Source: Eledone cirrhosa (Eukaryota). From it: a stretch of DNA of 64,000 bases. The stretch lies in NCBI GenBank assembly GCA_964016885.1, contig OZ024742.1, positions 58,466,001 to 58,530,000 on the forward strand. Reading direction: 5' to 3'. Every line of letters starts with the position of its first letter. Position 1 is the first letter of the stretch. Of the stretch, positions 4,057 through 37,422 are shown one piece after another. The notes under the pieces are model-generated. The model was not told the DNA's origin, ran no database searches, and saw only the letters and a list, made by a program, of their open reading frames with translations. The translations under genes and the position numbers were made by a program.

Positions 4057-4147
4057 TAAAACCATGTCCACACAGACCTATCAAGTAAAAAACAAAAACA
4101 ATAAAACCATGTCCACACAGACCTATCAAGTAAAAAACAAAAACAAT
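4057..4147. repeat. Tandem duplication of about 45 bp in TPI intron 1
   Basis: AAAACCATGTCCACACAGACCTATCAAGTAAAAAACAAAAACAAT occurs twice, head to tail. Confidence 0.9.
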
Positions 4148-5510
4148 ATGAAACATTATCTGTAATAGAGTTCGAGAAGTTGACGGAGACTAAACTTTCG
4201 ATTGAATCCCGCTTCTTGAACTTTATAATTTCATGACTATGAACGTTAACTTAGATCAGATGTGGTTGTTTATCCTTAGATCAGATGTGATTGAGTAGAT
4301 CTATGATCAAAATCATTCCAGCTATGGTTATCCCATCTTTTTATATGAGGGACCACACTGTCCAACGTATTCGAAATTTATAACAATAGGGTTATGCTTT
4401 AAGGGAGATTTTTGCTGCTATTTCTAGCAGGTCGAGCGACTGCGAAGAGTAGCAATGATTCTGAACATGGAACAATTTGAATATTGAGTTCGTGGGAGAA
4501 GAGGTAGTTTTTGTTTCTAAATTTCATACATCTTTATAACATCAAACATTTTTACATTGAGGGTGCGAAACTCCGAGAGTCCCTCTCCACTCAGTTTGCT
4601 AAAACAAAAACAAAAAAGGCGATTCCGACTGATTTGGAGGTCAGATTCGTTAGAAATACAGTAAAAAGGAAAAGGAACAATTTCCCAGGGAGCGGCTGAG
4701 GGGTGTTTTTCTGTAAATATCCCGAATCAAATACTTTGAGATGTGATGGTGGAACATGGGTTTAAAATGGTTAAGAACCGTTGGCGAAGAGTCTCCCCTC
4801 CTCGCTGGCTTGTGTAGTGCTACTGTGTGAGAAGCATATTTAACACACATAACTTTATATATATATAGACTGGTGCAGGACTAGACATATATATATATAT
4901 ATATATATAAGGGGAAGATATGGTGGAGCGTTTATCACTTTTGGAAAGATATTTAACGCAGATTGAAATGAAATGGCTACGGTAACGAAGAATTAATACG
5001 GGAATGTAGATCGATATCGTAACGGAATAACTTTATACTGAATCCCTACCCACCACCACCACCTTCCAGCCCCCAATGTCCACTGACAATGTGGTTCGAC
5101 TAAATACATCAGGATATTAACGTTTAGTTCTCTTCGTTGCAGGTTCAAATTCTGCCGGTACTGATAAAATAAAGTATAGTAATAAACCGATAGAACGCTG
5201 AAGTAGAAATCAACTAATTAAATCGTCTACGCCCTCCACCTCTAAATAAATTAACCTTGAGACTCTGAAAGAATCTTTACACACACACAAAGAACTAAGT
5301 AAATATGAAAAATACTTTAAAAAGATAAAACATGGTCGTTTTCTTAATGTAACATGTTTGAAAAAGAAAAACAGTTCCGTATTTACACAAATGAATAAAT
5401 AAATATGTGTGTGCTTATAAGGACACCGAGAGCATACTTCTTTCCTTTACCTTTTCTATGGAAATACTTAACACACACACAATATATATATATATATATA
5501 TATTTTTTTT

Positions 5511-5693
5511 TTCAATGATATTAAATAAATGGAAACTATATTTATAAAACCATAAAATATGGTTTTATAAATATAGTTTCCATTTATTTAATATCATTGA
5601 ATATTATACTCCAGAAAACTTGTCGAGTGCTTTGAATCAGTTATAAACATTTATATTTGTTGAATTACCAACAAATTAAATATCCCCTTTGCT
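5511..5693 (+). mobile_element. PLE terminal fragment with a perfect fold-back hairpin (44-bp arms, 5511-5601)
   Basis: Perfect palindrome with a 3-nt loop, flanked by (TA)n. The body resembles the reverse complement of 32539-32668, which adjoins a hammerhead motif. Confidence 0.65.
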
Positions 5694-5852
5694 TATATAT
5701 ATATATATATATATAAACGGTTGAACAAATGTCCGTGAACATTTGAATATTTATTATAGCAATCAATCAATCGATAAATAAACAGAACAGTTAAACACAA
5801 AAATCTGTTTAGATTGTAACGGTTAGAAGATGATTCAATGTTGAGTAGAAAG

Positions 5853-5904
<52 letters not shown>

Positions 5905-5988
5905 AATACAGTATATAGAGAAGAAAACCCCCAAAAGTATGTTTTCAATTACGTGGGGTGAAGAACTATATATATATACTAAACTAAC

Positions 5989-6097
5989 CTGTGTCAGCAT
6001 TGATAGGTCCGGCATTCATAAATGCAACAATTGTATCAATACTTTTCTTGTTGCCATTTAATTTCCAGTTGCCTCCAACGAAGAATTTTCTGCCCAT
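5989..6097 (-). CDS. TPI: Triosephosphate isomerase, first coding exon (gene continues leftwards, probably out of the window)
   Basis: The minus strand from ATG at 6097 reads [36 protein letters not shown] plus one G, then a GTTAGT donor. FVGGNWK carries the TPI catalytic Lys, and a phase-1 intron after ..DT|E is the conserved animal TPI intron 1 position. I did not find exon 2 (EVV..PP..Y / AQNC / GAFTGE) in 1-5988. Confidence 0.95.
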
Positions 6098-6338
6098 GAT
6101 GTTTCTTCTCTTTTAAAACAGTTAACAATGGTTGAGGAATCAGACTGTATTTTTAAGCGACTGTCGTGATAGAGAGAGGAGGACAGAATGAGAGAAATGC
6201 TCTTGCTCGAGCAGAGAGAGGAAGACAGAATGAGAGAGATACTGTATCGAAGACAGAGAGGGGAGGTGAGAGAGATACTGTATCTCAGAGAGAACAAAGT
6301 AAGAGAGAGTGTTGCTCAGACAGCGAGGAGGCAGAGTA

Positions 6339-6380
<42 letters not shown>

Positions 6381-6479
6381 AGAGAGAAAGTGGCAAAAGC
6401 AGGATGAGGAGAACTCAGTGAAGAAGAGAGAGTGACAGAGAGTGAATGTTACTGAAGGAGAGACTGAGGGGTGTGTGTG

Positions 6480-6525
6480 ACAAGGTCGTTTGACGCTGAA
6501 CGTCCTTGACGTCTTATCAAGGTCA
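6480..6525. promoter_or_regulatory. Cluster of nuclear-receptor extended half-sites (ERR/SF-1 type) upstream of TPI
   Basis: Perfect TCAAGGTCA at 6517-6525, ACAAGGTCG at 6480-6488 and GTCCTTGA (reverse TCAAGGAC) at about 6502-6509, roughly 400 bp upstream of the TPI ATG. Confidence 0.4.
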
Positions 6526-8271
6526 AATTTATAAATAAAATTACCGATAATATTCAAAGGTAGGCAACATAGACCTAGACCAGATTTTTAATATTAAGAT
6601 GGTCAGACAAACTCAGAGAAAAGAAAAATCGCTTTTTGAAATTTAAATATAAAAAAAGAGGAAGAAATTACAAGCCTAAAACTATATTAAATAATAAAAT
6701 GAAAAATGCGAAAATATTTAAACATAAATGTTTATATTATATTCTCTCGTGATTTAAGTGATCTGGTTTTACGAACCCCCTTCCCTCAAAGTCATTATTA
6801 TCAACTTCAGTTTCGTCAACCTCGTCACCATTAGTCTCAATTTCATTATAATCAATTTTAATTTCGTTATCGTCAACTCCAATGTCCTTACTGAACGATG
6901 GAGCCAACTTTTATTATTATTATTATGAAGAGCGAAACATTAACACCGATGATTACTTGTAGATTGTTTTGTATAAAGAAATTTTCGTACTCTACATTCC
7001 CGTAAATACACAGTTTATTTACAGTAAAACTACATACTATACTATATGCAACACGAGAAAGACAAAAATGAATTACACCGATTTAACGTTTTATTCATTA
7101 TTCACATTTCTCAACTCACTTCACATATTCCTTTTAAAAAATCATCACATTCGTCTTCAGTGAACAAAATCAGCGCTGTGTTGATTAAGAATATTTCGGT
7201 CTCCTCCTTTGCTTCGCGACTCAGAGGCAATATCATTCTTTTCTGACATCCCTCTTCAATTATCTTCTCTCATCTCTCCAGTTACCCATCCCCGCCGACG
7301 TTGAACACACAGTCCCCCGTGGATGACACGAAACATCTCCGTGACCAAATCAAATGCATGTGCTGTCTTCAAACGACACAGTCCTCCAGCCCTCACCGGT
7401 GGTCCTAGTCACTTTCCACCTGAAACAGCCAAACCTCCCGAACGATATTAGAGACATCGAAACTCCAATGAGAACATGATAGCTGCTCTTAGATTTTTCC
7501 AGTATAAGAATGCCTGGAGACCAAACAAGCTAAGTTAGGAAGGATAACAGAAATTGCGCCTCATCAGACCGCATTCTACACCCTTCTTTCCGAGGAACTG
7601 TTTAGCAATAGGCGAAACTCCCTGTGAGGTTCGGAGGCATTAAATGACATCATCAGCCAGCTTCCCATCACAACCGGAGCCTGTCGGCTTTGGAAGAGAG
7701 AATAATCCTTTTCCAATTCAAAGGGAGGCAAATCTCTCTAAGATTGGTAAATTTATAGAACATCTCCACCCCCTCGATTTCAGTGGGGGAAAATGTTTTT
7801 TCCTTATTTTGTTTTTTCTTTGTGTGTGCTATCAACTAATATAACTTCTAATATGCTTGCAATCGACTTTTTTCCAGGACAACGTAGGGGATGGAGTAGT
7901 CGCCTCTCCCATTTTCGGAGTTTTCTTTACGATTTTTATTTCACGTGTTATCCACGAATATGACCTCCGAACCAGTCAGAAACGACTAGCTTTCTAGGAA
8001 AAGGAGAGGGAAAGACCATCGGAATTTCGCAGATCTACCCACCGCCCTCTCGTTTGGTGAGAAATTTTTTTTTTTTTTCGTGCGTTATCAACAAATTTGG
8101 CCTCGAAGATGTTCGCATTTGACCCTTTTACCTCTGGAAAACAGAAACCATTACCATAACCCTAACAATAACTCTAAACCTTAACCCTAATCTGTGGAAA
8201 AAATGTCGATTGTCAGCATCTTTAAGGTCCGATGTAGATCTGCGAAATTCCGATCGATTTAAAATAATAAT

Positions 8272-8453
8272 TGTTTCTACTATTGGCACAAGGCCAGCAA
8301 TAACCTAGTACATTACTGGTACTTTATTTTATCGACCCTGTAAGGATGAAAGGCAAAGTGAACCTCGGCGGGATTTGAACTCACACTATAAAGGGGCGTA
8401 ACTCTATGCTGCAAAGTATGGCGTCCAACCTTCTACTGATACTGCCAATCCGC
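8272..8453 (-). mobile_element. S1 SINE with a target-site duplication (TSD) of about 17 bp
   Basis: Same head and core as 430-650; flanked by CGATTTAAAATAATAAT on both sides. Confidence 0.85.
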
Positions 8454-8459
8454 GATTTA

Positions 8460-10780
8460 AAATAATAATGAAAATTATTGTGCACAGTGCTCATAAGGTG
8501 CGTGTATAGTACATAGAATAATGTACAAATGTCAGGAAAGTGAACGATGTATGAGTCACGATATGCACAGACACATACACATGCGTGTGTGTGTATGGCG
8601 GGGGAATATCAGGTGTAGTGTTGGTAAATTTAGGGAAGCATGGAAGTGTTGAAGGATACAGTGTCCTGACAGCTAACAACTGATGCAGGTAGTTTTTTCC
8701 ATGCTTTAGCAACTCTGAGCGTGAAAAAATGTTTCCGAAAGACATGGGAGCTGTACTGTTTTCTGATTTTGTAAATATGTCCGAGGTGTTAGACACATGG
8801 GATTCAAAAAGGTGCTCAGGGTTGTTATTGGCAAGATGGTTAATAATCTTGTGGGTATCTACCAAGTCAGTTACCAGACGTCGGGGGCTTTAATGCATCC
8901 ATACCTAGGAAAGCTAGGCGTTCGAAGTATGGTAGACGCCTGATGGAGGGTATTCGTTTGGTTGCACCTCTCTGAACAATTTCCAGGAGATCAATATTCT
9001 GAGCAAGATAGGGGTTCCAGGCTGGTGATGCAAATTCTAAGTGTGGACGCACCATAACTATATACAGATTTAAATAGACTAGCAGAAAAACCAACCTAGG
9101 GTTGTTTTCTGCTAGCATGTGTCGTGTGTATATTGATATTATACATGTAGATATGATACATCAAATAAAATCGTAATTGACAATATACACAGAAATTGAA
9201 TGAAGTCTATGTTACACTGTCTTCTGTAATCAGTAAAATAATCCATGATACATTTAAAAAAGACGATATTATATATAAACTGAATTAGGAGAAAATTAGC
9301 GACGGAAATATATGCGATATTTTTATAAGTGTTATAATATAATGGCCGCTAACCGGAAGTGTTGACATTTGAAAATTTTAAGGAAGTGAATCTTTAAATA
9401 AGCTATAAAATATATTTAATCAACAGCCACGAAATTTAGCACATAAATTATGTAATATTCATTCATTATTTATTCAAATTAATCCAACTTATTTTACAAA
9501 CGGGGCAAAAAGATATATTCTGGACGCAGTCCCGCACTCCTTTCTTTATTATAGTTAAGATAGCTGGAGAGCGGCTGACAAAGGTCTTACTGAGTGATGC
9601 TAAGACACCCTCAGCCTTCTTGATAATTTTAGAGATGTGCTTTGTCCAACGTAAATTATTGTTGACAATAATGCCCAGGTCACGTTCACAAGAAGACATC
9701 TTGAGATAGGTATTGTGAAGGAAGTATGTGAACGCTGCCCCCCCCCCCCCAATGCATGGTGGTACTCGTGTCCTCAGCCAGCTTGAGTTGCCAGTCCGTA
9801 ATCCATTGCTGCGTTGTGTCCAGGTCTGATTGCAGGAAAGATCGTACAGGATCTGTCCTTTTTATCTAAAGTTTGGCATCTATGTCATTAATATATGCAA
9901 CAAACAAAAGGGGACCAAGAACAGATCCCTTTGGTACACCAGATGTCATCTCATAGAATGAAGAATGCTGTCCTAGTACCGTGACTACCTTTTTTTCGAC
10001 TGAAAATGAAGGACTTCAATCAGTTATAAAGATTATCTCTCACATCCATTGCAGAGAGTTTTGCCATAAGTCTTTTGTGTGGCATAGAACCACCATTAGC
10101 GATTCGGGTAATATCTTCAAGAAACTTGATGAGTTGATCACAGCAGCTGGAGTAAGGGATAAATTCAAATTGCGAGGGTCGGATAAGGCTGTGAGAGTTC
10201 CAGAAGTTCCAGAGTGTTTCTCTGACACAGGACTCCATCAGTTTGGCGTTGCTGTAAGTAAGACTGACTGGACAATAGTTGACAGGCGACGTGCAATCAC
10301 CTTTTTTGAACAGAAGAATGACAATGGCAGTTTTCCACTGCTCTGGGGTAACATTGTTGTTAAGGCAGAATTAAAACAAGAGTGAAAACTGGAACAGAAG
10401 AAAGTACCCACCACGCTTGAGAAACAGGTACGTAACACCATCAAGGCCAGGAGAGGCATAGTTGCGCTTATTCTTAAGGTGGCGTTGCAATATTGCAGGT
10501 GTAATTGTTGCTACAGAATATGTCAGAGGTAGTGGAGATGGTATATTTTGATTTTCGACAGTAAAAATGCCTGCATAGCTTTCAGCAATAAATTCTGCGC
10601 ATTCTTTGGGATCGTCACTAATCTGGCCTGTGTGGGGATTGCGAAGAGGACCAACTGGAAAGTGATGTCTCTGCTTTGAACGTACATGTTTCCAGAACAC
10701 TTTGTTGTCAGGGTTGGTTGCTATACACTGTTCAAGCACTGCTTTTTTGCCACCTGCTTGAGATGGTTAGATGATCTATT
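8460..10780 (-). mobile_element. Decayed, 5'-truncated CR1-clade LINE (RT to 3' end), interrupted by a Helitron
   Basis: Frameshifted fragments: SPGLDGVT, GVPKGSVLGPLLFVAYIND, ERDLGIIVNNNLRWTKHI, VRPHLEFASPAWNPY..IDLLEIVQRGATK..LPYFERL. Ends in an (ATT)n tail. Confidence 0.85.
9079..9560 (-). mobile_element. Non-autonomous Helitron inserted in the CR1
   Basis: The minus strand starts TCTTAACTATAATAAAG and ends in a hairpin plus CTAG. It sits between host A and T with no TSD, and removing it rejoins the CR1 peptide (..VSRSPAI/YLNLY..). Confidence 0.85.
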
Positions 10781-14230: not shown

Positions 14231-14419
14231 CCATTTTGTGGGTCTGAGAAAAGTATTAAATTGATGAGATCACCAAAGCATTGCAATATGGCTAGACACA
14301 ATAAAGGCAGTCATACTGCATTGTCTTTTGCATTCATGGATGCATTCAGACCTTAGATAGCGAGTCCTGTTTGAAAAATATATTGGAGTCTCCTCCCAAT
14401 GCTGCAAACTCTAGTGGGG

Positions 14420-16710
14420 TCCTCTGTTGTGTCCTGGGAGAGGTGGGATGGAAGCACAAAAATTACATATGTCGAGACTCCAGAGATGTTCTGAAAGGGA
14501 GCAAACTTTAACAATTGGTAATTGGAACATTGCAACCCTTACAAGCAAGGTGCAAGAACTAGTAGAGGTAGCCAGATGCTACTGGCTAGATATAGTCCAG
14601 GTTTCCTCAAGAAAGTTCCATGGCTCTGGTACTGTAGATTTGGATGTAGGATGGAAACTCTGCTATTCAGGTGTGGCACCAAAGATGACTGCACAGACAA
14701 GAGTGAAGATACTCAAAAGTCCCCTGCTGCCAGAATGTGTTATGAACTGGATCCCGTTGGGAGGGAGGATTTGCCTCTTGAAGCTTAGGCTGAAAGAAAG
14801 GTCTTTGTGGATGGTGCAAGTTTATGCACCAAACCGAGAGCCAAAATATGGATCCTTCCTTGATGAAGTCACTGCAGTGATAGATGTAATTAGGACTGAG
14901 TTATATATACTAATGGAGGACTTCAATTCACAGGTTGACGTTGACTACCTGACATAGAAAAGAATGATTGGAAGAAATGGTGACTCCAATCTGAATACGA
15001 ATGGAAAGGCCTTATTAGACTTCTGTTCTAGTAACGGGCTACCTATTTGAGTAACTTCTTCCAGCACAAAGACAACCATAAATACATATGTCAGAAGAGG
15101 AATTGGGGACAGAGAAAAATAATTGATTTTGTAATTGTATCTGATCTCTTCAATTCAATGTTGGATGTTCGTGTAAAGAGAGGGGCTGTGCTGTCAACTG
15201 ACCACCATCTAGTTATCTGCAGCCTGAAACTACCTAAAGCCAAGAGAGTCCACAAAACTTGTAGGTTCAAGTTGACCTACAGGATAAAGTGGGAAGTGAT
15301 GGCAGATAAGGAAGTCAGGAACAGGTTTGCGGATACTATTGCATCCCAATTCAGAGAATTCCCTGAGCAAACTGAGGATGTTGAAACAGTGGAGACTGTT
15401 CAGCTCTGCAGTTTCTGCTTCAGCTGTTAAATGCTGCAGGCGATGTGTGGTGCCGGTTGGCAGGAGAACCCCTTGGTTCAATCAAGTTGTCAAAGGAGGA
15501 GGTTTACAAAGCTTGGCTTGGAAATAATTCCTCCTTCTTGCAGTACAAGCAGCCATGAAAAGTTGCAGCAGACCATCCACCGACTTCATAATAAGACATC
15601 CCCCTTCATGCCTACTATTAGGAACACATCTGAGGTTCTCTCTTCAATGAGGTGCATCCTTGCAAGGTGGAGAGAATACTTTGCTGATTTCCTAAACCTG
15701 CTCACAATAGTATATTTTAATGTACACAATGTGCATCTGAGAGCAATGATAAACCTCTCAGAGGTAGAGGTCACAAGAGCAATGAAAGAGCTCAAATGTG
15801 GCAAGGATGCTGGGAAGGATGAAATTCAGCCTGAGATGTTAAAAGCCTTAAATAGAGAAAGTATTCTCTGGCTGACACATGTATACTGGGTGGTCTGTAT
15901 CTCTGAAAAGGCACCTAATTCCAATTTTCAAAAAGAAAGAGATTGCTCCAATTATAGAGGGATCTCCCCAGCAAAGCAATGTCTATGCTAAGTGTCTGGC
16001 AAAGAGATGTAGGGATATTGTTGAGTCCAAGCTAGCTGATGAACAGTATGATTTTTGTCCTGGACACAGTAGGTCTTTTAGAAATCGTGAGAATATTAAC
16101 ATGAGGTGTTGTTCTTGTATGGTAGACCTCGAAAAGACATATGATCGCATTCCATGAGACATGCTGTGAAAGCTTCTGCAGGATTATGGGATTGATGGAT
16201 AGCTTCTTGTTGCCTCGACATCTCTATATAAATGCCCTAGTATTTATATTTGGATAAATAGTGCTAAGTTGAAACCATTCAATACTGATGTCGGACTCTG
16301 CCAAGTGTGCATACTGTCACCTCTCCTGTTCATAATCTTTATGGACAGGATTGACATGCACAGCCAGTTTGGAAGTATTGAGACTGGCAGATGAAGGATC
16401 AGTCGACTGAAATTTGTGGAAAACATGGTACTATTTAACTCAGAAAGTGATTTCTGACATGCACTTGATAGGTTTGTTGCCTGTGCTGCACAGCAGGATT
16501 GAAAATTTGTCCCACAAAGACTGAGACATTCCTCCTCTCAAGGAAGTCTGTGCAGTGCAGTCTACATGTGAGTGGAGTTCTACTGAAGCAGGAGGAGAAG
16601 TTCAAGTATCTTGAGGCTGTATTCACAAGTGATGGAAGGCAGGAGGCTGGATTAAGTGCAAAAATTGCAGGAGCTGGTGCAGTAATGAGCTAGCTTCAGC
16701 ATTCGGTAAT
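14420..16710 (+). mobile_element. Decayed RTE-clade LINE of Expander/Rex3 type (APE + RT)
   Basis: LTIGNWNI..L..K.QELVE, VQVYAPN, DFNSQV, VRVKRGAVLSTDHHLV, GKDAGKDEIQPEMLKAL, VDLEKTYDRIP, LSPLLFIIFMDRI, FKYL..VFTSDGRQ. Many stops and frameshifts. Confidence 0.85.
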
Positions 16711-21372: not shown

Positions 21373-24300
21373 TTAGGTAAGGCGGGTCTTCTCTATTACT
21401 GAGTACCGCCAAAGGTCTCGGTCCAGTGACATTGTCTTGGAGAGGTGTAAGCGTGTGAGGTCGGAATTTATCAGCTCGTCCCATGTTTTTCTGGGTCTGC
21501 CTACTCCGTGGCTACCGTCTATCTTTATTGCCCTGCACTTTGTTATACAGCTGTCGTCTTTCATGCGCATCACGTGACCGTACCAACGTAGCCTTCTCTC
21601 GAGTAAACAACATCGGATCCCTCTTATTTTTAATTTTTTCCTTAGTTCGTTTATGCTTTGCCGTTCACGTATATTACTATTGCACATCCAGCGGAGCATG
21701 CAAGCTTCGTTCCTCTCTAGTCTGCGTATATCCTCTGCACACAATGCCCAGGTCTCACTGCCATGCAGCATTGCTGTTCGTATGCAGGCATCGTATAACC
21801 TGCCTTTCATTTTTAGGGAGAACCCTCTAGCGGCTAATAGTGGTATAAGCTCTCTGAACTTTTTCCATCCAGTTCTGACTCTAGCTACTGTACTTTCAGA
21901 GCACCCTCCCCCACTGCTGATTTTGTCACCCAGGTAACGGAAGCTGTCCACTATTTCTATAGAACCCTCTGCGCAGTTGAAGGAGCTAGTATTTTGTGGG
22001 CACTTGCTGCTACTTATTGCACCAGAGCACCGGCCACATGTAAAATCTATGTTCTTAGTTAGCTTACCTGTGATCCCACTACATCTTTTATGCACCCATA
22101 CTTTGCATTTGGGACATAAAATGGAGTTTCTACCTACGCCTTTCCTACACACTGAGCATGGCCATTTCCCAGATGGGACTGCCGCCTTATTTTCTTTCCT
22201 ACAAACTAGAACTTTAGTCTTAGCCAGGTTAATTTTAAGGCCTTTTGATTCTAGGCCGTGCTTCCATGTTTGGAATTTCTTCTCTAGTTCGGTCATTGAT
22301 TCAGCTATGAGCGTTAGATCATCTGCGTATAGGAGTTCCCATGGGCAGCCGGTCTTGAACTCCTCTGTTATAGCCTGAAGGGCAATAATAAATAGTAGGG
22401 GGCTAAGAACAGAGCCCTGATGGACACCAACTTTTACGCTAAACTCTTCACTATATTCGTTGTTAATTCTAACCTTACTGACTGTTTCTTTATACATGGC
22501 TTGTATAGCTCTCACAAGCCATTCGTCAACACCTAGTTTTCTAAGAGACCACCAGATAATGGAACGGGGGACTCTGTCGAAGGCTTTCTCCAAGTCGACG
22601 AAGGCTAAGTATAGGGGTTTACTTTTAGCTAGGTACTTCTCCTGTAGTTGTCGTACAATGAAAAGAGCGTCTGTGGTACTTTTGCCTGACACAAACCCGA
22701 ACTGCATTTCATCTAGATCAATTCTCTCTCTGATTAGTTGCGCTATTACTTTTTCCGTGACCTTCATGACCTGGTCGATTAATTTAATGCCTCTATAGTT
22801 ACTCCTATCTAGGGCATCTCCTTTTCCCTTATAGCAGTTAACGATGATGCTGCTACGCCAGTCCTTCGGAACAACCCCATTCTGTACGACTTGGTTAACT
22901 ATCCGGGTGACCATGGTGTGTCCCACCGAACCAGATGCCTTCAGCATCTCAGCAACTATTTCCGAAGGACCAGCCACCTTAGCCGTCTTCATATCTTTGA
23001 TTGCCTTGCTTATTGTACTACCCTGGACTAACACTACTGGTCCCTCTATTGGGTCGATGTGGTGGAGACTGTCTTTCTCCCATTTGTTCTCCTCATTTAG
23101 AAGCCTTTCGTAGTGACACTTCCAAGCTACCTTCTTATCAGCGTCGGTGATGGCAAGTATGCCATCATCGTTAAGTACACACTTCTCCCCGACAATATCA
23201 CGGTTTTCCTTGACACATTGCCTGGCAATCCTGAACACCTCACGTTTTTGGTCCTCACGTTGTAGAACATGCTTGAACTTTCTTTCCTCTGCTTCCCTTC
23301 TTGCGAAGTACACTTGTCTCCTAGCTTCCCTCCTGGCCACTTGATAGTCTTCTCTACTTCCCCCATCCCGCCATGCTTTCCAAGCCTGCTTTTTGGCCTT
23401 AATTGACCCCTCCACCTTACTGTTCCACCACCATGTTACTCTCCTCCTACCTACAGGCCTGCTCCAGCCACAGACTTCGTCTGCCGCCGTCAGCAGGTTT
23501 GCTCTCAGGAATTCCCACTGTTCCTCTATATTATACGACTCTAATTGCTCTTCCTTACTGTCGAAAGCATCAAGTAATATGCTTTGAAATTTATTTCTGG
23601 CTATGGGGTCCTTTAGCTTCCATATTTTTCTCCTGAGGATAGTCCTCTTCCGCTGTCTAGTACGTCTCGTCCTGACTATGAGGTCGCTAATTATCAGTCT
23701 ATGTTGGGAGGTGAATTCTTCATGGGGGAGGGATTTAGTGTTAACAACAGACGCTCTGTCACGTCTTCTGGTAAGGATATAATCTACCTGGCTTGTGTGT
23801 TCCCCCGATCTATAGGTGATCAAGTGATTGTCTCGTTTTTTGAAGTTAGTGTTACAGATAGTTAAGTTATTTGCGTCACAGAATTCCAGGATTCTGGAGC
23901 CTTCCTCATTTCTAGTACCGAACCCATAGCCTCCATGGATTCCGTCATAGCCGTCACAATGTTGTCCAACGTGACCATTTAGGTCGCCTGCAATAACTAT
24001 ATAGTCACTGTCGGTTATTTGGGAGGTAGCGAGCATCAGTGTCTCGTAGAATCTGTCTTTTATAGCGCCGGGCAGTCCGGATTGTGGTGCGTACGCAGAT
24101 ATTACTGTCACCGTAGTTTTATTGAGGACAAGTCTTATTTTAATTATTCTGTCGTTCACTCTATTTACGTCTATTATCTTATCTGCCCACTTTTCTGCTA
24201 CCATGATTCCTACCCCACCCAACCCATTGTCATTTCCCACCCAGAAAAGCTTATAGCATCGTTTTTTACCCACGATGAATCTAGCCGACCCTCCCCTCCA

Positions 24301-24393
24301 CCTGGTCTCTTGAATACAACAAACATCGACCTCCTTACGTTCAAGCATTTCTACAACCTCGTTAGAGCGACCCTTTAAGGTGCCTACATTCAT
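21373..24393 (-). CDS. RTE retrotransposon polyprotein: APE endonuclease, reverse transcriptase, PHD-type zinc finger
   Basis: APE motifs CIQETRW, SAYAPQ, GDLNGH, QVDYIL, SQH. RT motifs NYRGIKL, QFGF, FVDLEKAFDRV, GVHQGSVLSP, YADD. C4HC3 motif CSVC-CPKC-HKRC-CGRC. RTE C-terminus RLRWYGHV..GRPRKTW. No stops. Confidence 0.95.
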   Translation of the reverse strand: MNVGTLKGRSNEVVEMLERKEVDVCCIQETRWRGGSARFIVGKKRCYKLFWVGNDNGLGGVGIMVAEKWADKIIDVNRVNDRIIKIRLVLNKTTVTVISAYAPQSGLPGAIKDRFYETLMLATSQITDSDYIVIAGDLNGHVGQHCDGYDGIHGGYGFGTRNEEGSRILEFCDANNLTICNTNFKKRDNHLITYRSGEHTSQVDYILTRRRDRASVVNTKSLPHEEFTSQHRLIISDLIVRTRRTRQRKRTILRRKIWKLKDPIARNKFQSILLDAFDSKEEQLESYNIEEQWEFLRANLLTAADEVCGWSRPVGRRRVTWWWNSKVEGSIKAKKQAWKAWRDGGSREDYQVARREARRQVYFARREAEERKFKHVLQREDQKREVFRIARQCVKENRDIVGEKCVLNDDGILAITDADKKVAWKCHYERLLNEENKWEKDSLHHIDPIEGPVVLVQGSTISKAIKDMKTAKVAGPSEIVAEMLKASGSVGHTMVTRIVNQVVQNGVVPKDWRSSIIVNCYKGKGDALDRSNYRGIKLIDQVMKVTEKVIAQLIRERIDLDEMQFGFVSGKSTTDALFIVRQLQEKYLAKSKPLYLAFVDLEKAFDRVPRSIIWWSLRKLGVDEWLVRAIQAMYKETVSKVRINNEYSEEFSVKVGVHQGSVLSPLLFIIALQAITEEFKTGCPWELLYADDLTLIAESMTELEKKFQTWKHGLESKGLKINLAKTKVLVCRKENKAAVPSGKWPCSVCRKGVGRNSILCPKCKVWVHKRCSGITGKLTKNIDFTCGRCSGAISSSKCPQNTSSFNCAEGSIEIVDSFRYLGDKISSGGGCSESTVARVRTGWKKFRELIPLLAARGFSLKMKGRLYDACIRTAMLHGSETWALCAEDIRRLERNEACMLRWMCNSNIRERQSINELRKKLKIRGIRCCLLERRLRWYGHVMRMKDDSCITKCRAIKIDGSHGVGRPRKTWDELINSDLTRLHLSKTMSLDRDLWRYSVIEKTRLT

Positions 24394-24607
24394 GGTACCA
24401 ACTCTGAAGTTTTGGATTGCGTTTGGAGGGTGGGAGCGGTGGGGCGCGGGGGGTGGATGGGGTTATGTTAGCCATCCTGGGCCGAAACAAGGAGGAGTGC
24501 TTGCATTCTCGTCCACGAGGTGAATTTGGCTTTATCTTTGGCATTGTCGCTGAGCGTCCACATTTTTCTCTCTTCAACTCTCCAGAATTCCGTAGTCCAT
24601 CCATCAT
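24362..24607 (-). CDS. Short upstream ORF overlapping the RTE main ORF
   Basis: 81-aa basic, Pro-rich ORF overlapping the main ATG by 32 nt in another frame. Short overlapping uORFs are known in RTE-1-type elements. Confidence 0.4.
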   Translation of the reverse strand: MMDGLRNSGELKREKCGRSATMPKIKPNSPRGRECKHSSLFRPRMANITPSTPRAPPLPPSKRNPKLQSWYHECRHLKGSL

Positions 24608-27248: not shown

Positions 27249-28538
27249 GGCATACGTCAAAACGGCCGGTCGCAAAAGTGAAACTAATTTTTGACGACAG
27301 TTACGTACGTCATTATTTTCAATTTGGATTGTGAATTTGTTTGTTTTTTTACAACAGGTCTCAATAGTGAAAGTGAATTTTGTTGATGGTGTTAGTTAGT
27401 ATTGCGTGTACGTGATAATTTTTTTAAATTCTTTTTTTGTGTATTGTGTGTACGGAAATTTTTTTTAAAAATAATGACATTGTGTGTTGAAATAAATAAA
27501 TATTGAAAATCCTTATTTAAATAATGACATTGTGTGTTGAAATAAATAAATATTGAAAATCCTTATTACACCCTATAAATAGCTGAAATACAGTTGATCA
27601 TCTCGCCAAACTTGTTGGCACCAACTCTCTGTCGCCAAAGAAATTAAAGTAGGGTCATAAGAAGGACAGAGAATGATAAGGGATTTGGGTCAGAGGGGCA
27701 GCTTGGGGTCAGAAAGGCAGATTGGCGTCAGAAGGGCTGGGAAATTTTTTTTTTTTTTTTTAAACGAAGCACTGAAGGGCTGGATTGTAATACAGTGTCA
27801 CATCAAATATGGCTGGACGAGTGTATGGTCGCGTTACCTTAGTTGAAGATATTTTGGATACCAATGCTATTCTTAATCGTTTTGAAACAGTGTATACACT
27901 GTTCCCGGCGATACACGGTGACACGTTGTGTATGTTACAGTGGTTGGCGAGTCGGCGTCTGTTGGCGAACAGTATGAATTGTCCTGTCTGCAATGAGGCG
28001 TGCACATTGCAAAGAAATTCTGAGGGGATTGATAAATGGAGATGGCGATGCGCCCGCGACAAATTTAGTCAATCGGTGCGACGGAATTCTTTATTTTATC
28101 GAAACCGTGTTCGACTCGAACACCTTAATGGCATTATCTATATGTGGTGCTACGATCATGCCCAAACTGAGATGATGAGAGAAACAGGACTTAGCAAGCC
28201 GACAATTATAGACTGGCGCAATTTCCTTAGAGAAATTTGTGAGCAGTATTTGGAGGCGAATCCTCAACAGCTTGGAGGATTCGATGAGAAGGGTGCCAAC
28301 AAGTTTGGCGAGATGATCAACTGTATTTCAGCTATTTATAGGGTGTAATAAGGATTTTCATAAGGTACGTCAATTTATATTTTATATGCAACAAACGTAT
28401 AACTATGTAGTTATCACTTTCACTATTGAGACCTGTTGTAAAAAAACAAACAAATTCACAATCCAAATTGAAAATAATGACGTACGTAACTGTCAAAAAT
28501 TAGTTTCACTTTTGCGACCGGCCGTTTTGACGTATGCC
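27249..28538 (+). mobile_element. Merlin/ISXO2 (IS1016-like) DNA transposon, internally deleted
   Basis: Terminal inverted repeats (TIRs) of about 125 bp starting GGCATACGTC; 8-bp flanks TATGTATA / TATATATA; a second inner inverted repeat at 27554-27622 / 28292-28360. Confidence 0.85.
27809..28348 (+). pseudogene. Truncated Merlin/ISXO2 transposase (Zn ribbon + HTH; DDE domain deleted)
   Basis: CPVC..WRWRC..SVR.NS.F..TIIDW.NFLREIC..LGG. Similarity breaks off where the VEIDE catalytic motif should follow, and the ORF reads into the inner inverted repeat. Confidence 0.8.
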
Positions 28539-30140: not shown

Positions 30141-31690
30141 AACCTTGCTGACTATTTCTTTATACATGTATAAAGAAACAGTCAGCAAGGTTAGAATTAA
30201 CAGTCAGCCAGGTTAGAATTAACAACGAATATAGTGAAGAGTTCAGCGTAAAAGTTGGTGTTCATCAGGCTCCGTTCTTCGCCCCCTACTATTTATTATT
30301 GCCCGTCACGCTATAACAGAGGAGTTCAAGACCGGCTGCCCATAGGAACTCCTATACGCAGATCATCTAACGCTCATAGCTGAATCAATGGCTGAACTAG
30401 AGAAGAAATTTCAAACATGGAAGCATGGCCTAGAATCAAAAGGCCTTAAAATTAACCTGTCTAAGACTAAAGTTCTAGTCTGTAGGAAGGAAAATAGGGC
30501 ACCTGTCCCATCCGGGAAATGGCCATGCTCAGTGTGTAGGAAAGGAATAGGTAGAAACTCCATTTTATGTCCCAAATGCAAAGTATGGGTGCATAAAAGA
30601 TGTAGTGGTATCACAGGTAAGCTAACTAAGAATATAGATTTTATATGTGGCCGATGCTCTGGTGCAATAAGTAGCAGCAAGTGCCCACAGAATACTAGCT
30701 CATTCCATTGCACAGATGGTTCTATAGAAATAGTGGACACCTTCCGTTACTTGGGTGACAAAATCAGCAGTGGTGGAGGGTGCTCTGAAAGTACAGTAGC
30801 TAGAGTCAGAACTGGATGGAAAAAGTTCAGAGAGCTTATACCACTATTAGCCGCTAAAGGGTTCTCTCTAAAAATGAAAGGCAGGCTGTATGATGCTGCA
30901 TACGAACAGCAATGTTACATGGCAGTGAGACCTGGGCATTGTGTGCAGAGGATATACGCAGACTGGAGAGGAACGAAGCTTGCATGCTCCGCTGGATGGA
31001 TGTGTAATAGTAATATACGTGAACGGCAAAGCATAAATAAACTAAGGGAAAAATTAGAAATAAGAGGAATCAGATGTTGTTTACTCGAGAGAAGACTATG
31101 TTGGTATGGTCACGTGATGCGCATGAAAGACGACAGCTGTATAAAAAAAGTGCAGGGCAATAAAAATAGACGGTAGCCACGGAGTAGGCAGACCCAGAAA
31201 AACCTGGGATGACTTGATAAATTCCGACCTCACACACTTACACCTCTCCAAGACAATGTCACTGGACCGAGATCTTTGGCGCTACACAGTAATACAGAAG
31301 TCCCGCCTTGCCTAAGTACAAAGCGAAACCTACAGTCAGTAGGCACCTCTAACAAAAATACACCCCCGTCCCACCACCCCATCCACACCACCCCTTTCGA
31401 TGTAAAGTTATGTTGGTACCACAACATCCAGGCCGAAACAAATGAGGTCGTGTAGGTGTCACGCAAAAAAACACAGTCCACGCTGTAATGTGGCCGTGTA
31501 GGTAACACGGTAAAAACCTCCCAGTCCACACTGTAAACGTAGTTGGTGTTGGGAAGAGCACCCAGCCGTAGAAAATCCGCCACACAGTCCTATACGAGCA
31601 AGACAACCAATCTTGCCTCAAGTGGGAAAATTCCCGTCCAAACCCATGCAAGCGTGGAAGATGGACGTTAAACGATGATGATGATGATGA
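30141..31690 (+). mobile_element. 5'-truncated, frameshifted RTE subfamily A copy
   Basis: Highly similar to the 3' third of the full-length element, including the PHD finger; (GAT)n tail; hairpin at the 5' junction. Confidence 0.92.
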
Positions 31691-32123
31691 TATATATAAT
31701 ATATATATATATAAATGAAAGGTATAGAAATTGTTTTAGCGAGAAGCTAACAGTATTCTATAATATATATATATATATAATATATATATAATATATATAT
31801 ATATATTATATATATAATATATATATATATAATATATATATTATATATATATATATATTATATATATAATATATATATATATAATATATATATTATATAT
31901 ATATATATTATATATATATATAATATATATATATATTATATATATATATAATATATATATATACATATATATATAATATATATATATACATATATATATA
32001 ATATATATATATACATATATATATAATATATATATATACATATATATATAATATATATATATACATATATATATAATATATATATATACAATATATATAT
32101 ATATATATATACAATATATATAT

Positions 32124-32261
<138 letters not shown>

Positions 32262-32267
32262 TATAAT

Positions 32268-32342
<75 letters not shown>

Positions 32343-32350
32343 TATATAAT

Positions 32351-32433
<83 letters not shown>

Positions 32434-32668
32434 ATATATATATATATATAGAATATATATATATATTATATATATAATATATATATATACATATATATAT
32501 AATATAATATATATATATATATATATAATATATATATGCAAAAGTTTTATTTAAAATTGTTGGGTTACAACGAGTAAATATTTTATAACTGATATAAAAG
32601 CACTCAACAGTTTCTGGAGTAGGTTTACGATATTAAACAAATGGAAACTATATTTATAAAACCATATT

Positions 32669-32734
32669 TATTTCGTTATATATATTTCTGGGATATCATA
32701 TTAAAAATATGGTATGCCTTCCTCAGACAAAATA
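32669..32734 (-). ncRNA. Minimal type I hammerhead ribozyme in a PLE pLTR (about 32539-33110)
   Basis: Stem I TATTTTGT/ACGAAATA, core CTGAGGA, imperfect long stem II, GAAA, palindromic stem III TATATA, AUA triplet. Confidence 0.6.
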
Positions 32735-33234
32735 CAATACATAAGCTGTTTTATAAATAATTTTGACATACCTTATAATAATGCAACTTCCATTTAAAAA
32801 GTTGATTTGGTAGTGAAACTGTTATGACAGTTATATAGAAAGAAAAACGAAGATGAAAAGAAGAAGATGAAGAGATGTATGTAAATAAAAAAAGAAGAAG
32901 ATGAAGAGATGTATGTAAAGAAAAACAACAGAGCGAGATAGAGAGAGAAGGAGATATGGGAGAGAGAAATACATTGAGGAAGTGAAAAAATATAGTAGGC
33001 AGCTTTTGGACAGATGATCATCGTATATGTGAGAGGTTAAGGAGGGAAGGGGTACAGTTAAACTAGCCGACACATAAATCACGTCCAGTGTAGAGGAGAA
33101 AAAGAAAGAAAGATGATATATTTAAAATATATTAAAAATATATATTATGTCTCATCCATTTGAATTATCAATTTTTATGAATTAGGTATTATAATGTAAA
33201 TATCAGTATTCATGAATGAGACACATATCCATAT

Positions 33235-33584
33235 TGCTTAGTTGGAGATATAGTGTGCAACTGTGGTGTTGAAACTGATTTAGATTCTTTTTGTGTTGGT
33301 TCCGCCTCGACGGAATTTGGACTTCGCTGTAGTAGTCACGGGGGTTCTTTCACGGATCCAGATAGAGGGTCTTCGGCATCGCTGTCGGGCTTGCTCTGGC
33401 AGCTTGGGCATGGTGGGGTTGGATATTCGATGGTTTGGAATGTGGTCTCAGGGGGGATTCCTTTTGGTTCCTCTTCTGAGACATGTGACCTCTGCGCGGA
33501 GGAGATGTTCTTTGTGCTAAAGTCTAGAGGTTCCCTTAATTTACGAGCCGGTTTGTTCAGCTGCTGCGGACATGGATTGAACTC
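33235..33584 (+). pseudogene. Neptune-type PLE GIY-YIG endonuclease fragment, A-to-G hypermutated
   Basis: Collinear with the Neptune ORF at 36043-36750 (CL..xIVxxC, xxG, F..R, H..SF, SLS..W.L, CDLC, LN, C.H.L). The conserved Y/I/T/K residues are changed by A>G. Confidence 0.85.
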
Positions 33585-33784: not shown

Positions 33785-34208
33785 ATGTAACAAGTCTTTA
33801 ACTGGTTGCTTTACTGTGAGCACCCAGCTATTCTGTATGTAAACACACAGACAAACCGGTTTTTAGAGTCATACTGGTTTTTGAGGGAACACCTTCCCTC
33901 TATTCTCCAGAAAGCCAGACAAGGAATATTGAACTAGTTTCGTTGTTGTTACAACTCATCAGCAATATTTACCTATCTACCGGCCCTTCTGGAGAATTGT
34001 CCAGAAGGGCCGGTAGATAGGTAAATATTGCTGATGAGTTGTAACAACAACGAAACTAGTTCAATATTCCTTGTCTGGCTTTCTGGAGAATAGAGGGAAG
34101 GTGTTCCCTCAAAAACCAGTATGACTCTAAAAACCGGTTTGTCTGTGTGTTTACATACAGAATAGCTGGGTGCTCACAGTAAAGCAACCAGTGAAAGACT
34201 TGTTACAT
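33785..34208. repeat. Near-perfect palindrome (209-bp arms, 6-nt loop) of a PLE pLTR
   Basis: The arms differ at one position that I could see; centre TTCTGGA-GAATTG-TCCAGAA. The left end abuts the gap. Confidence 0.9.
34024..34068 (+). ncRNA. Minimal type I hammerhead ribozyme (mirror copy at 33925-33969, minus strand)
   Basis: Stem I AATATTG/CAATATT, CTGATGA, stem II GTTGT/ACAAC, GAAA, palindromic stem III ACTAGT, GUU triplet. Stem I is extended by TCCAGAAGGGCC / GGCTTTCTGGA. Confidence 0.85.
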
Positions 34209-35681: not shown

Positions 35682-36750
35682 TTATTAAAATAACAGATTA
35701 AAGTTTAAGCAAAGAATCGCTGCTTTCACCCTTAACGGGATCTTCTCAAACTAACAAAGTCAATCTGTAAACGCAGAAGTGGATATTTCAAAAAACGTTG
35801 CAACCGGAGGAAGACAGGAAGACGATACTTTGGTTCGTATACACATAGCCAAACCATATGTACCAGAATATATAAAATTATACGCCATAACATAAACAAT
35901 CAAATATACGTACGAGAAGGTATACGTACCTTCACAAAACATACGGGTCATATATACTTACCTATGCAAATAAGTAATGGTATAAACAAAACATATACTT
36001 AGCTCCCACATCAAGACGTAAAATATCCACGTATAAATCGTACTATCCGTTAGAGTATAACGTGGGGCTGTAATACAGGAAAGTTTTGTGCAATTTATGT
36101 TTACAAGCCGAAATTGCCTCAGATTTTTTGTTTAAGATGTGGTCTGTAGCGTAGAGTATTGCCAGGGCCTCAGCGGCGCAGAGGTCACATCGTCTTTTAT
36201 TTCCGTTATACGATCTAGCCCTAGCTAGGATCTCTCAGTGTAACTTATATTGGGTGTGGTTGTCTTTTAGACTCCAGATATAAGCTGAAAGTGACGTCAT
36301 ATTCCTTCTTAGAGGGTAACGAAAAGAATGGGTATGCATGTAAAGACGCTGCTTGAATCTATTGGCGGTTAACCCTATGTAGGCCCTACGGAACGTGGGT
36401 GTTACAACCTTACATTTGTAGACAATGTTACTCGAGAGGCATTTCCCGGATAGGGGGCAATCAACCCGATTCCTACAATTACAGTTAGTACTAACTACAG
36501 GGTTGCACGTGTTCCTACGGCTAGGTAGTTTAGCTAAATTTGAAGCTGTGATGTTATGTGCAAGGTTAGGAGTCGTAGAGTAAGAAATTTTAATAGTATT
36601 TCTATTAAAAACTTTACTATATTTATGTGTAGGGGGAAAATGCTTCGTAATAAGGGAAAGAAAGATCTTAGCTAATGGTGTGGCCACCTCCATATTATAT
36701 GGTGGGTTATACCAACAAATGTGACGGGATCTATTTCTTCTAGGTCTATT
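35682..36750 (-). mobile_element. 5'-truncated Neptune-clade PLE (RT thumb/linker, Cys-rich motif, GIY-YIG, pLTR)
   Basis: WYNPPY, FPPTHKYSKVFNRNTIKISYS, CNC..CPLSGKC..NIVYKC..YIGLT..FKQR..H..SF..TSLS.Y.W.LK. One TGA replaces a Trp, then CDLC..LN..CKH to the stop at 36043. Confidence 0.92.
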
Positions 36751-37422
36751 TTCCTACTCTGTATATAAATGAAAAGTATAGAAATTGTTGTAGCTAGAAG
36801 CTAACAGTATTCCATAACAGTATTCCATATATAGAGAGGGGGGGGGGGGATAATGAGAGAGAGGGGGGGGGGAGAGACTACTTCAAATAACCCCAACTGT
36901 TTATATGATTGAAATTACCATTAAGGATAAGAAAGCAGAGAAAATGCTGAAAATATCTGAAGTAGTACACATCTTGTTACTCAGTCAATCAGGTAGTACA
37001 GGAAGGTATTGTTCCCTATTACTGGAATAGCAGTATAATCAACAACTGTTATAAGGGGAAAGGTTATTCTCTAGAATAAAGGTTCTCAACGGGGGGGGGG
37101 TTGAAGCTTAGGGGGGCGCTGGAAGCCCCTTTAGTTTTTTTAGTTTGGTAAGTTTTATAAGTGAGTATTTGTATGTCTCTTTGACAGCCAGTGTAATGCA
37201 TTTGAATGAAGAAAACGAAGAAAATAAATAAAATAAGCTTGTCAACGAATTCCCTAGGGAGATAAAAAAAAACCAGAAAGAAATCAAAGAAAATGAACAT
37301 AAGGATGTCAACTTTGACAACAGTTACAAGAACAACTTCAACAGAAATGACAACAAAAAGAAGCAATGGTGATGAAAGATGTGGGTGTATACATATACAT
37401 ACATACGAACATACACACATGC

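What the first reader, a model, noticed from the sequence alone, without database searches (positions are those of the whole stretch)
33235..33584. Genomic Penelope/Neptune copy with a one-directional A-to-G hypermutation signature: a possible retro-inserted ADAR-hyperedited RNA
Seen: this GIY-YIG fragment is a G-rich, A-poor island in AT-rich DNA. By hand count, 33241-33584 has about 57 A and 109 G in 344 nt. Against the unmutated Neptune relative at 36043-36750, the losses at conserved motif positions I compared are reachable by sense-strand A>G alone: NIVY->DIVC (GAT, TGC), YIG->CVG (TGT GTT), T->A (GCC), FK->FG (GGA), TSLS->ASLS (GCA), W.LK->W.LG (GGG) and CKHKL->CGHGL (GGA twice). Reverting the Gs also gives the family-like RYNNHKSSF. 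There are no stops or frameshifts, which is unlike neutral decay. About 26 of the 57 remaining As follow a G, weakly in line with ADAR avoiding a 5' G. Known: ADAR hyper-edits long dsRNA, RT reads inosine as G, coleoid cephalopods edit RNA heavily, and APOBEC leaves the opposite mark (G>A). Inference: an edited PLE transcript was reverse-transcribed and fixed in the germline, which would make ADAR a heritable mutator and restriction mechanism for PLEs.
Basis: partly seen in the sequence, partly recalled or inferred. Interest (0 to 1): 0.93.

Follow-up and report, generated by a model that had tools for sequence, protein, structure and literature searches.

The report
ADAR-edited Penelope copies in genomic DNA
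A young jumping-gene copy has half of its A letters changed to G on one strand, as expected if its RNA was heavily edited by ADAR before being copied back into the chromosome; about twenty separate copies show the same mark, which also records which RNA strand these elements copy.

Summary
Confirmed and much larger than reported. Against five near-identical paralogues, window 33233-33584 differs by 60 A>G and no other substitution; As after G are spared (1/19 vs 59/99). Nineteen independent insertions in four sub-lineages show it (1472 A>G vs 61 other changes), about 1% of 1804 copies. One search for the opposite-strand mark (T>C) found none. Edits fill a roughly 1.5-kb domain, and inverted arms of one insertion share every edit (92/92, 60/60, 36/36). 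A read-derived contig carries the Gs; the genome encodes an ADAR2-like deaminase. Best reading: ADAR-hyperedited sense RNA was reverse-transcribed and inserted (0.87). This bears on the open question of the Penelope template strand. Not shown: restriction, population fixation, host taxon, the antisense partner RNA. A second family in the window showed no such copies. Ten paper searches found no description in genomic non-LTR or Penelope copies; unchecked notes of this scan report the same mark in an L1 and an ERV in other genomes.

The parts
33233..33584 (+). 5'-truncated sense arm of a C-terminal-endonuclease Penelope-like element (endonuclease region; matches 5925-6279 of the open-frame copy L040), hyper-mutated: 60 A>G, 33 of 40 changed codons non-synonymous, one codon deleted near 33291; runs into the gap
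32538..33233 (-). Inverted arm: 3' end (pseudo-LTR part, about L040 7070-7765) of the same family, unedited, 98-99% identical to the closest young copies
33233..33233 (.). Head-to-head junction of the two arms; 1-nt exact overlap (BLAST extends to 33236 through a mismatch); spanned by a contig of run X1
31690..32537 (.). (TA)n-rich tract abutting the element's 3' end, the likely target site
   Evidence: microsatellite bias of PLEs in PMC8557442
33585..33784 (.). 200-N gap hiding the rest of the edited arm
36043..36766 (-).

Best explanation
A sense transcript of this Penelope-like element paired with an antisense RNA over about 1.5 kb (from just upstream of the endonuclease region into the pseudo-LTR). 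A host ADAR converted up to half of the adenosines in that duplex to inosine. The element's reverse transcriptase then used this edited sense RNA as template at a (TA)n site, reading I as G, and the insertion entered the genome with A>G on the sense strand only. Both inverted arms of an insertion come from that one molecule (the second arm copied from the same RNA or from the first cDNA). SHOWN: spectrum, strand, neighbour context, recurrence in independent insertions, bounded domain, arm identity, an ADAR2-like gene. INFERRED: that the enzyme is ADAR, that the substrate was RNA, the antisense partner, germline or early-embryo timing. RECALLED: reverse transcriptases read inosine as G.
For: 60 A>G and 0 other substitutions vs five paralogues. 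19 events pooled: 1472 A>G vs 61 other. 5' neighbour: T 525/1085, A 638/1506, C 153/599, G 63/476; 3' G highest, 218/441; TAG 0.76, GAA 0.06; upstream G depletion is the shared ADAR motif in PMC5625713 (passages). Edited copies sit in four sub-lineages beside unedited relatives (tree) with non-nested site sets. All three codon positions hit alike, 24/42, 20/41, 16/35. Domain starts at L040 5675-5736 in 8 of 11 informative copies, three sub-lineages, and fades 300-600 nt before the 3' end in most copies. Arms share all edits: L034 92/92, L038 60/60, L049 36/36, none private. T>C-requiring motif 0 hits; A>G-requiring motif 14 hits. Contig of run X1 identical over 33204-33497; contigs matching edited copy L002 in X1-X3. 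PF02137 matches at four places; L127 matches the human ADAR2 catalytic domain at E 3e-102.
Against: No enzyme or RNA was observed. The antisense partner is inferred only from the edited domain. Three of 11 informative copies start elsewhere (5248, 6007, 6209). Family B, which also has inverted arms, gave 0 hits among 3179 copies with an equivalent motif of unknown sensitivity, and 7 of 7 fetched candidates were unedited, so the mark is not general. The strand test rests on one motif at one site. The run that holds the window copy is of unrecorded type and may be the assembly's own sample.
Confidence: 0.87

Rival explanations
1. Adenines were deaminated in DNA during integration: ADAR acting on the DNA strand of a persistent RNA:cDNA hybrid, or an ADAT2-like enzyme on single-stranded sense DNA. 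If the template were antisense RNA, this would give sense A>G and reverse the strand inference.
For: ADAR activity on DNA in hybrids is recalled, not from a call. Amphioxus ADAT2/3 deaminates A in DNA (PMC10354150, abstract). An antisense template was proposed for PLEs (PMC3846280, passages).
Against: Edits stop at a fixed position although the copied DNA runs on for up to 1.7 kb; a hybrid or single strand would be substrate throughout. The amphioxus enzyme prefers GAA and also makes C-to-U, whereas GAA is the least edited triplet here (2/34) and C>T is 14 of 1533 changes. Both arms share all edits.
Confidence: 0.06
2. Error-prone synthesis by the element's reverse transcriptase (G opposite T under a skewed dNTP pool, or adenine-directed mutagenesis as in diversity-generating retroelements).
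For: One-directional, all-or-none per copy; As inside runs are hit more (0.54) than isolated As (0.32).
Against: Shared domain start across sub-lineages and unedited stretches in the same molecule; strong 5'-G avoidance; no excess at the 3' or 5' end of A runs (0.44 vs 0.41); only A>G, whereas such retroelements give A to any base (recalled).
Confidence: 0.04
3. Assembly or sequencing artefact next to the gap, or RNA-derived reads leaking into the assembly.
For: The copy ends at a 200-N gap; only one of four runs holds it as a contig and its type is not on record.
Against: 18 other events lie on six other contigs plus this one; the nine fetched as 10-kb stretches contain no N. Arms differ by a few ordinary changes while sharing all edits. 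Short-read-derived contigs match two edited copies. The known clustered trace error was met among G-to-A clusters (PMC2873906, passages).
Confidence: 0.02
4. A G-rich subfamily that amplified, or ordinary decay.
For: Edited copies share 35% of sites on average.
Against: Sharing is the same within and between sub-lineages (0.354 vs 0.349), explained by site preference; neutral A>G is 38 of 297 changes; only arms of one insertion are identical.
Confidence: 0.01

Closest known systems
ADAR-type A-to-G hypermutation of exogenous retroviruses (RAV-1, avian leukosis virus; HTLV-2/STLV-3 in culture), as cited in PMC8586724 (passage)
   Same: Clustered A>G ascribed to ADAR on a reverse-transcribed RNA.
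   Different: Here a non-viral endogenous element, about 20 separate chromosomal insertions, a recurrent domain, and target-primed insertion.
APOBEC 'DNA editing' of LTR retrotransposons (PMC4866542, passages; PMC2873906)
   Same: Host deaminase leaves strand-specific hypermutation in integrated copies, in a small share of them.
   Different: That mark is G>A, on cDNA, in vertebrate LTR elements; the screen covered LTR elements (DNA transposons as control), required G>A direction and found 19 invertebrates devoid. Here A>G, ADAR context, a Penelope-like element.
RNA-level hyper-editing of repeats, including Penelope in lizard and very high levels in octopus (PMC5625713, passages)
   Same: Same enzyme signature (G depleted upstream), same element class.
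   Different: Seen there in RNA reads against an unedited genome; here written into chromosomal DNA.
ADAR1 restriction of LINE-1 (PMC5224506, passages)
   Same: ADAR engages a retrotransposon RNA.
   Different: There editing-independent, with no edits found in more than 2.5 kb of L1 RNA; here editing is the mark and restriction is untested.
Retroprocessing of edited RNA in plant mitochondria (PMC4987113, search listing only)
   Same: Edited RNA copied back into a genome.
   Different: Organellar, site-specific, not a mobile element, not ADAR.

Membership tests
Penelope-like element, endonuclease-positive | Single ORF with RT followed by C-terminal GIY-YIG endonuclease | tested here: met
   749-codon open frame in L040; Atlas look-alikes at 0.95-0.98 carry RVT_1, GIY-YIG and HTH_animal. 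Pfam scan and PDB search gave no hit, so the domain call rests on motifs and the Atlas.
Penelope-like element, endonuclease-positive | Pseudo-LTRs in direct and inverted arrangement | tested here: met
   L040 2953-4044 repeats 6676-7768 at 99%; 27 of 40 position-ordered copies have an opposite-strand arm.
Neptune clade | Cysteine-rich Zn-finger-like linker between RT and endonuclease | tested here: met
   C-x-C-x5-C-x5-C upstream of the endonuclease motif; linker present in Neptune/Nematis, absent in Penelope/Poseidon per PMC8557442. Spacing differs from the paper's CX2-5CxxC notation.
Neptune clade | RT phylogeny grouping with named Neptune elements | not tested
   No named reference set was fetched; Neptune-like is the most that is shown.
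ADAR hyper-editing | Clustered A>G only, on one strand | tested here: met
ADAR hyper-editing | G depleted 5' of edited A | tested here: met
   63/476 vs 0.42-0.48 for A and T; window p=7e-6
ADAR hyper-editing | Long double-stranded RNA substrate | tested here: inconclusive
   No long inverted repeat inside the element; inverted arms are common; partner RNA not observed.
ADAR hyper-editing | Host encodes a catalytically intact ADAR | tested here: met
   HAE and PCG motifs present in the L127 frame; expression and activity untested
ADAR hyper-editing | Inosine in the RNA or loss of the mark without ADAR | not testable with these tools
   needs RNA or bench work
APOBEC DNA editing | Sense-strand G>A clusters | tested here: not met
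   G>A is 7 of 1533 changes
Restriction factor action | Editing reduces successful or full-length insertion | tested here: inconclusive
   5' ends inside the domain 5/13 edited vs 5/40 others, p=0.052; rank test p=0.28

The most novel reading that the evidence does not exclude
ADAR is a heritable germline mutator of retrotransposons, and its marks work as a molecular barcode of Penelope replication: the template is the sense RNA, both inverted arms of an insertion are made from one molecule (at least once by copying DNA, flank included), and a family-specific antisense RNA of about 1.5 kb from the pseudo-LTR defines which part, the endonuclease region, is destroyed.
Probability: 0.55. Interest if true: 0.92.

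Novelty: new variant of a known kind. Interest (0 to 1): 0.83.

Why it matters
[quoted passage not shown] These copies are direct records of RNA edits becoming inherited DNA, with about half of the As changed in one step. A 2013 paper leaves open whether Penelope elements copy a sense or an antisense RNA and how head-to-head arms form (PMC3846280); the strand and sharing of edits answer both if ADAR acted on RNA. The mark is easy to screen for in any assembly, and screens built around G>A in LTR elements would have missed it.

Tried and rejected
Truncation as evidence of restriction: a first comparison looked strong (9/18 vs 2/26, p=0.003) but was biased by how copies were found; with motif-matched sampling it fell to 5/13 vs 5/40, p=0.052, rank test p=0.28. 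Low-level editing in ordinary copies: none; singleton A>G 8.9 per 10,000 As inside the domain vs 16.7 upstream, 54 copies. Frequency from similarity-ranked samples was inflated by choosing neighbours of edited copies; the motif counts replace it. An antisense poly(A) signal at the domain start: the hexamer is there (L040 5699) but 7 others in 5000-7000 exist, some with equally U/G-rich downstream sequence. Hammerhead ribozyme marking a boundary: Rfam gave only microsatellite matches. Family B: 0 motif hits, 7 of 7 candidates unedited. Arm comparison gave no usable alignment for L032, L033 and L035; 5 of 11 comparisons had no edit in the overlap, and L054 (17 shared), L051 (5) and L163 (3) had weak references or few sites. 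L009 gave no 3' profile. Sequencing runs: no RNA holder listed; X2-X4 do not cover the middle of the edited arm; neither is evidence. Pfam and PDB searches of the ORF were blank. PMC12910113 passages added nothing. Scan look-ups by place and by Penelope words were empty.

Full report
OBSERVATION. The window lies at G000:C3:58466001-58530000 in a 3.0-Gb assembly. A search with 33150-33584 returned 42 matches and 30 loci. Of the 29 non-self loci, 18 are young unedited copies that differ from 33233-33584 by 58-61 A>G and 0-3 other substitutions; five differ by 60 A>G and nothing else, apart from a 3-nt deletion private to the window copy. That is 60 of 117 aligned As. The other 11 loci are A>G-rich themselves. 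Lack of stops is uninformative, since sense A>G cannot make a stop from a sense codon.

ANATOMY. An open-frame copy (L040) has a 749-codon ORF at 4064-6310 and a direct pseudo-LTR (2953-4044 = 6676-7768, 99%). Atlas look-alikes carry RT and GIY-YIG families; Pfam and PDB searches were blank. A cysteine-rich linker precedes the endonuclease, which fits Neptune or Nematis rather than Penelope/Poseidon (PMC8557442, passages); no phylogeny was run, so I say Neptune-like. The window insertion is (TA)n, then an inverted unedited 3' arm (32538-33233), then the edited sense arm from 33233 into the gap. This head-to-head form is usual: 27 of 40 copies, taken in order from the first 47 places (skipped: the edited copy, four partner arms, two copies met earlier), have an opposite-strand arm. 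The window copy has 33 non-synonymous and 7 synonymous codon changes, spread over all codon positions.

RECURRENCE. A second search with an edited copy and a motif search brought the total to 19 insertions, plus one lightly edited copy (L163, 10 A>G vs 1 other). Each compared with its three nearest unedited relatives, they show 1472 A>G against 61 other changes in the ORF part. They fall in four sub-lineages next to unedited copies (tree on purine-collapsed sequence, 45 rows, rough supports). Site sets overlap equally within and between sub-lineages (Jaccard 0.354 and 0.349, maximum 0.58; 17 of the 19 events; one near-subset of 11 sites), so these are independent events. A motif needing three edited positions matched 14 places (13 insertions); with those positions free it matched 1804; it recognises 13 of 18 known edited arms and 0 of 90 unedited ones. 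That gives about 19 arms, about 1%. Ordinary copies show no low-level A>G excess: the mark is close to all-or-none.

SIGNATURE. Edited share by 5' neighbour: T 525/1085, A 638/1506, C 153/599, G 63/476; by 3' neighbour G 218/441, A 623/1516, T 342/1067, C 196/642. In the window copy 1 of 19 As after G is changed against 59 of 99 others (p=7e-6). TAG is the most edited triplet (13/17), GAA and CAT among the least. G depletion upstream is the ADAR motif shared by all species in PMC5625713 (passages), which also reports Penelope as heavily hyper-edited at RNA level in lizard. The genome has 12 PF02137 matches at four places; one frame matches the human ADAR2 catalytic domain at E 3e-102 with HAE, PCG and IESGEG motifs.

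STRAND, DOMAIN, ARMS. All 19 events are A>G on the sense strand, but they were found with A>G-biased queries. The fair test was a motif needing two T>C changes at positions that ADAR would favour on the antisense strand: 0 matches, although its free form fits 84 of 90 and 36 of 39 unedited copies. About seven hits would be expected if such copies were as common (my estimate, assuming about 50% sensitivity). Edits are confined: in 8 of 11 copies that reach far enough upstream the cluster starts at L040 5675-5736, in three sub-lineages; the others start at 5248, 6007 and 6209. It fades some 300-600 nt before the 3' end in most copies (L135 runs further, several are cut by reference coverage). 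The unedited inverted arm in the window fits this. A limit shared across sub-lineages points to a partner RNA with defined ends more than to chance arm lengths of donor loci; family B has inverted arms too yet gave 0 motif hits among 3179 copies and 7 of 7 unedited candidates. Where inverted arms overlap the edited domain they share every edit: L034 92, L038 60, L049 36, with none private to an arm; L054 17, L051 5 and L163 3 agree but are weaker; 5 of 11 comparisons had no edit in the overlap. The arms differ by a few ordinary changes. A hairpin transcript copied straight through would give A>G in one arm and T>C in the other; that is not seen. In L038 the duplication runs about 970 nt past the element into flank, so there one arm was copied from DNA.

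IS IT GENOMIC? A 294-nt contig of run X1 matches 33204-33497 without a difference, across the junction and the deletion. Contigs in X1, X2 and X3 match edited copy L002 by number and kind of differences. These runs are one sample of unrecorded type and may be the assembly's source, so this excludes a consensus error better than it shows inheritance. The nine edited loci fetched as 10-kb stretches have no N.

MECHANISM. Shown: spectrum, strand, context, recurrence, domain, arm identity, an ADAR2-like gene. Inferred: an antisense RNA pairs with the sense transcript over about 1.5 kb; ADAR edits it; the element's RT copies the edited sense RNA at a (TA)n site; the second arm is made from the same RNA or first cDNA. 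Recalled, from no call: RT reads inosine as G; ADAR can act on DNA in hybrids; diversity-generating retroelements change A to any base. Confidence 0.87. The main rival, deamination of DNA during integration (0.06), would reverse the strand inference but does not explain the fixed limits; the one metazoan DNA adenine deaminase I found prefers GAA and makes C-to-U (PMC10354150, abstract). Restriction is not shown: only about 1% of copies are marked, and the excess of 5' truncation inside the domain did not hold up with fair sampling (p=0.003, p=0.052 and 0.28). RNAs destroyed before insertion would leave no record.

COMPARISON AND NOVELTY. It works like APOBEC editing of LTR elements but fails that family's defining test (G>A is 7 of 1533 changes); that screen required G>A in LTR elements and found invertebrates devoid (PMC4866542, passages). 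ADAR-type hypermutation is known for exogenous avian retroviruses (PMC8586724, passage). For non-LTR elements a review calls ADAR's mutational role undetermined (PMC4982230, passage) and an L1 study found no editing (PMC5224506, passages). The template strand of Penelope elements is left open in PMC3846280 (passages). Ten searches listed no paper on ADAR-edited non-LTR or Penelope copies in genomic DNA; I saw listings only for most hits, read no supplements, and most subscription journals are missing. PMC2873906 and PMC12910113 were seen as passages. Two unchecked notes of this scan describe the same mark in an L1 and an ERV of other genomes; they are leads, not support. The host taxon was not tested.

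VERDICT. Real, recurrent and well controlled at sequence level; a new variant of a known kind (host-deaminase footprints in retroelement copies), with an unusual payoff for Penelope mechanism. Interest 0.83.

Noticed in passing
L038:786-1759 and 8257-9234 (G000:C2:384268000-384277999): The inverted duplication continues about 970 nt beyond the element's 3' end into flank (99.7% identical); the left side runs on seamlessly into another PLE frame, suggesting fold-back copying of DNA.
   Followed up: partly
L040:5696-5704: The edited domain begins right after a T6 run that reads as an ATTAAA hexamer on the antisense strand; conserved, but not unique among such hexamers.
   Followed up: partly
window 33785-34208: 424-bp near-perfect palindrome (99%) just right of the gap, unrelated to the edited family; no match in other fetched loci, yet very high summed contig depth in runs X1-X3.
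   Followed up: partly
window 33204-33497: The contig of the window copy has depth 2.6 in X1 while contigs matching copy L002 have 8, 9 and 5 in X1-X3; a lead that the window insertion may be heterozygous, not evidence.
   Followed up: no
window 36043-36766: Second PLE family, 3179 copies at one motif, young (98-99% identical), with no hyperedited copy found.
   Followed up: yes
L163 (G000:C1:35910800-35915000): Lightly edited copy: 10 A>G clustered from L040 6209 onward vs 1 other change.
   Followed up: partly
L127-L128 (G000:C6:13644405-13646174): ADAR2-like deaminase domain in only two exon-like pieces, against five or more at C1:146.45 Mb; three further PF02137 places exist.
   Followed up: no
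window 21376-24462 (-): 1029-codon open frame beginning with an endonuclease-like domain of a LINE (family not tested); other LINE, integrase and transposase fragments at 14415-15988, 27791-28345, 30346-31173, 62235-63999 (labels by inspection).
   Followed up: no
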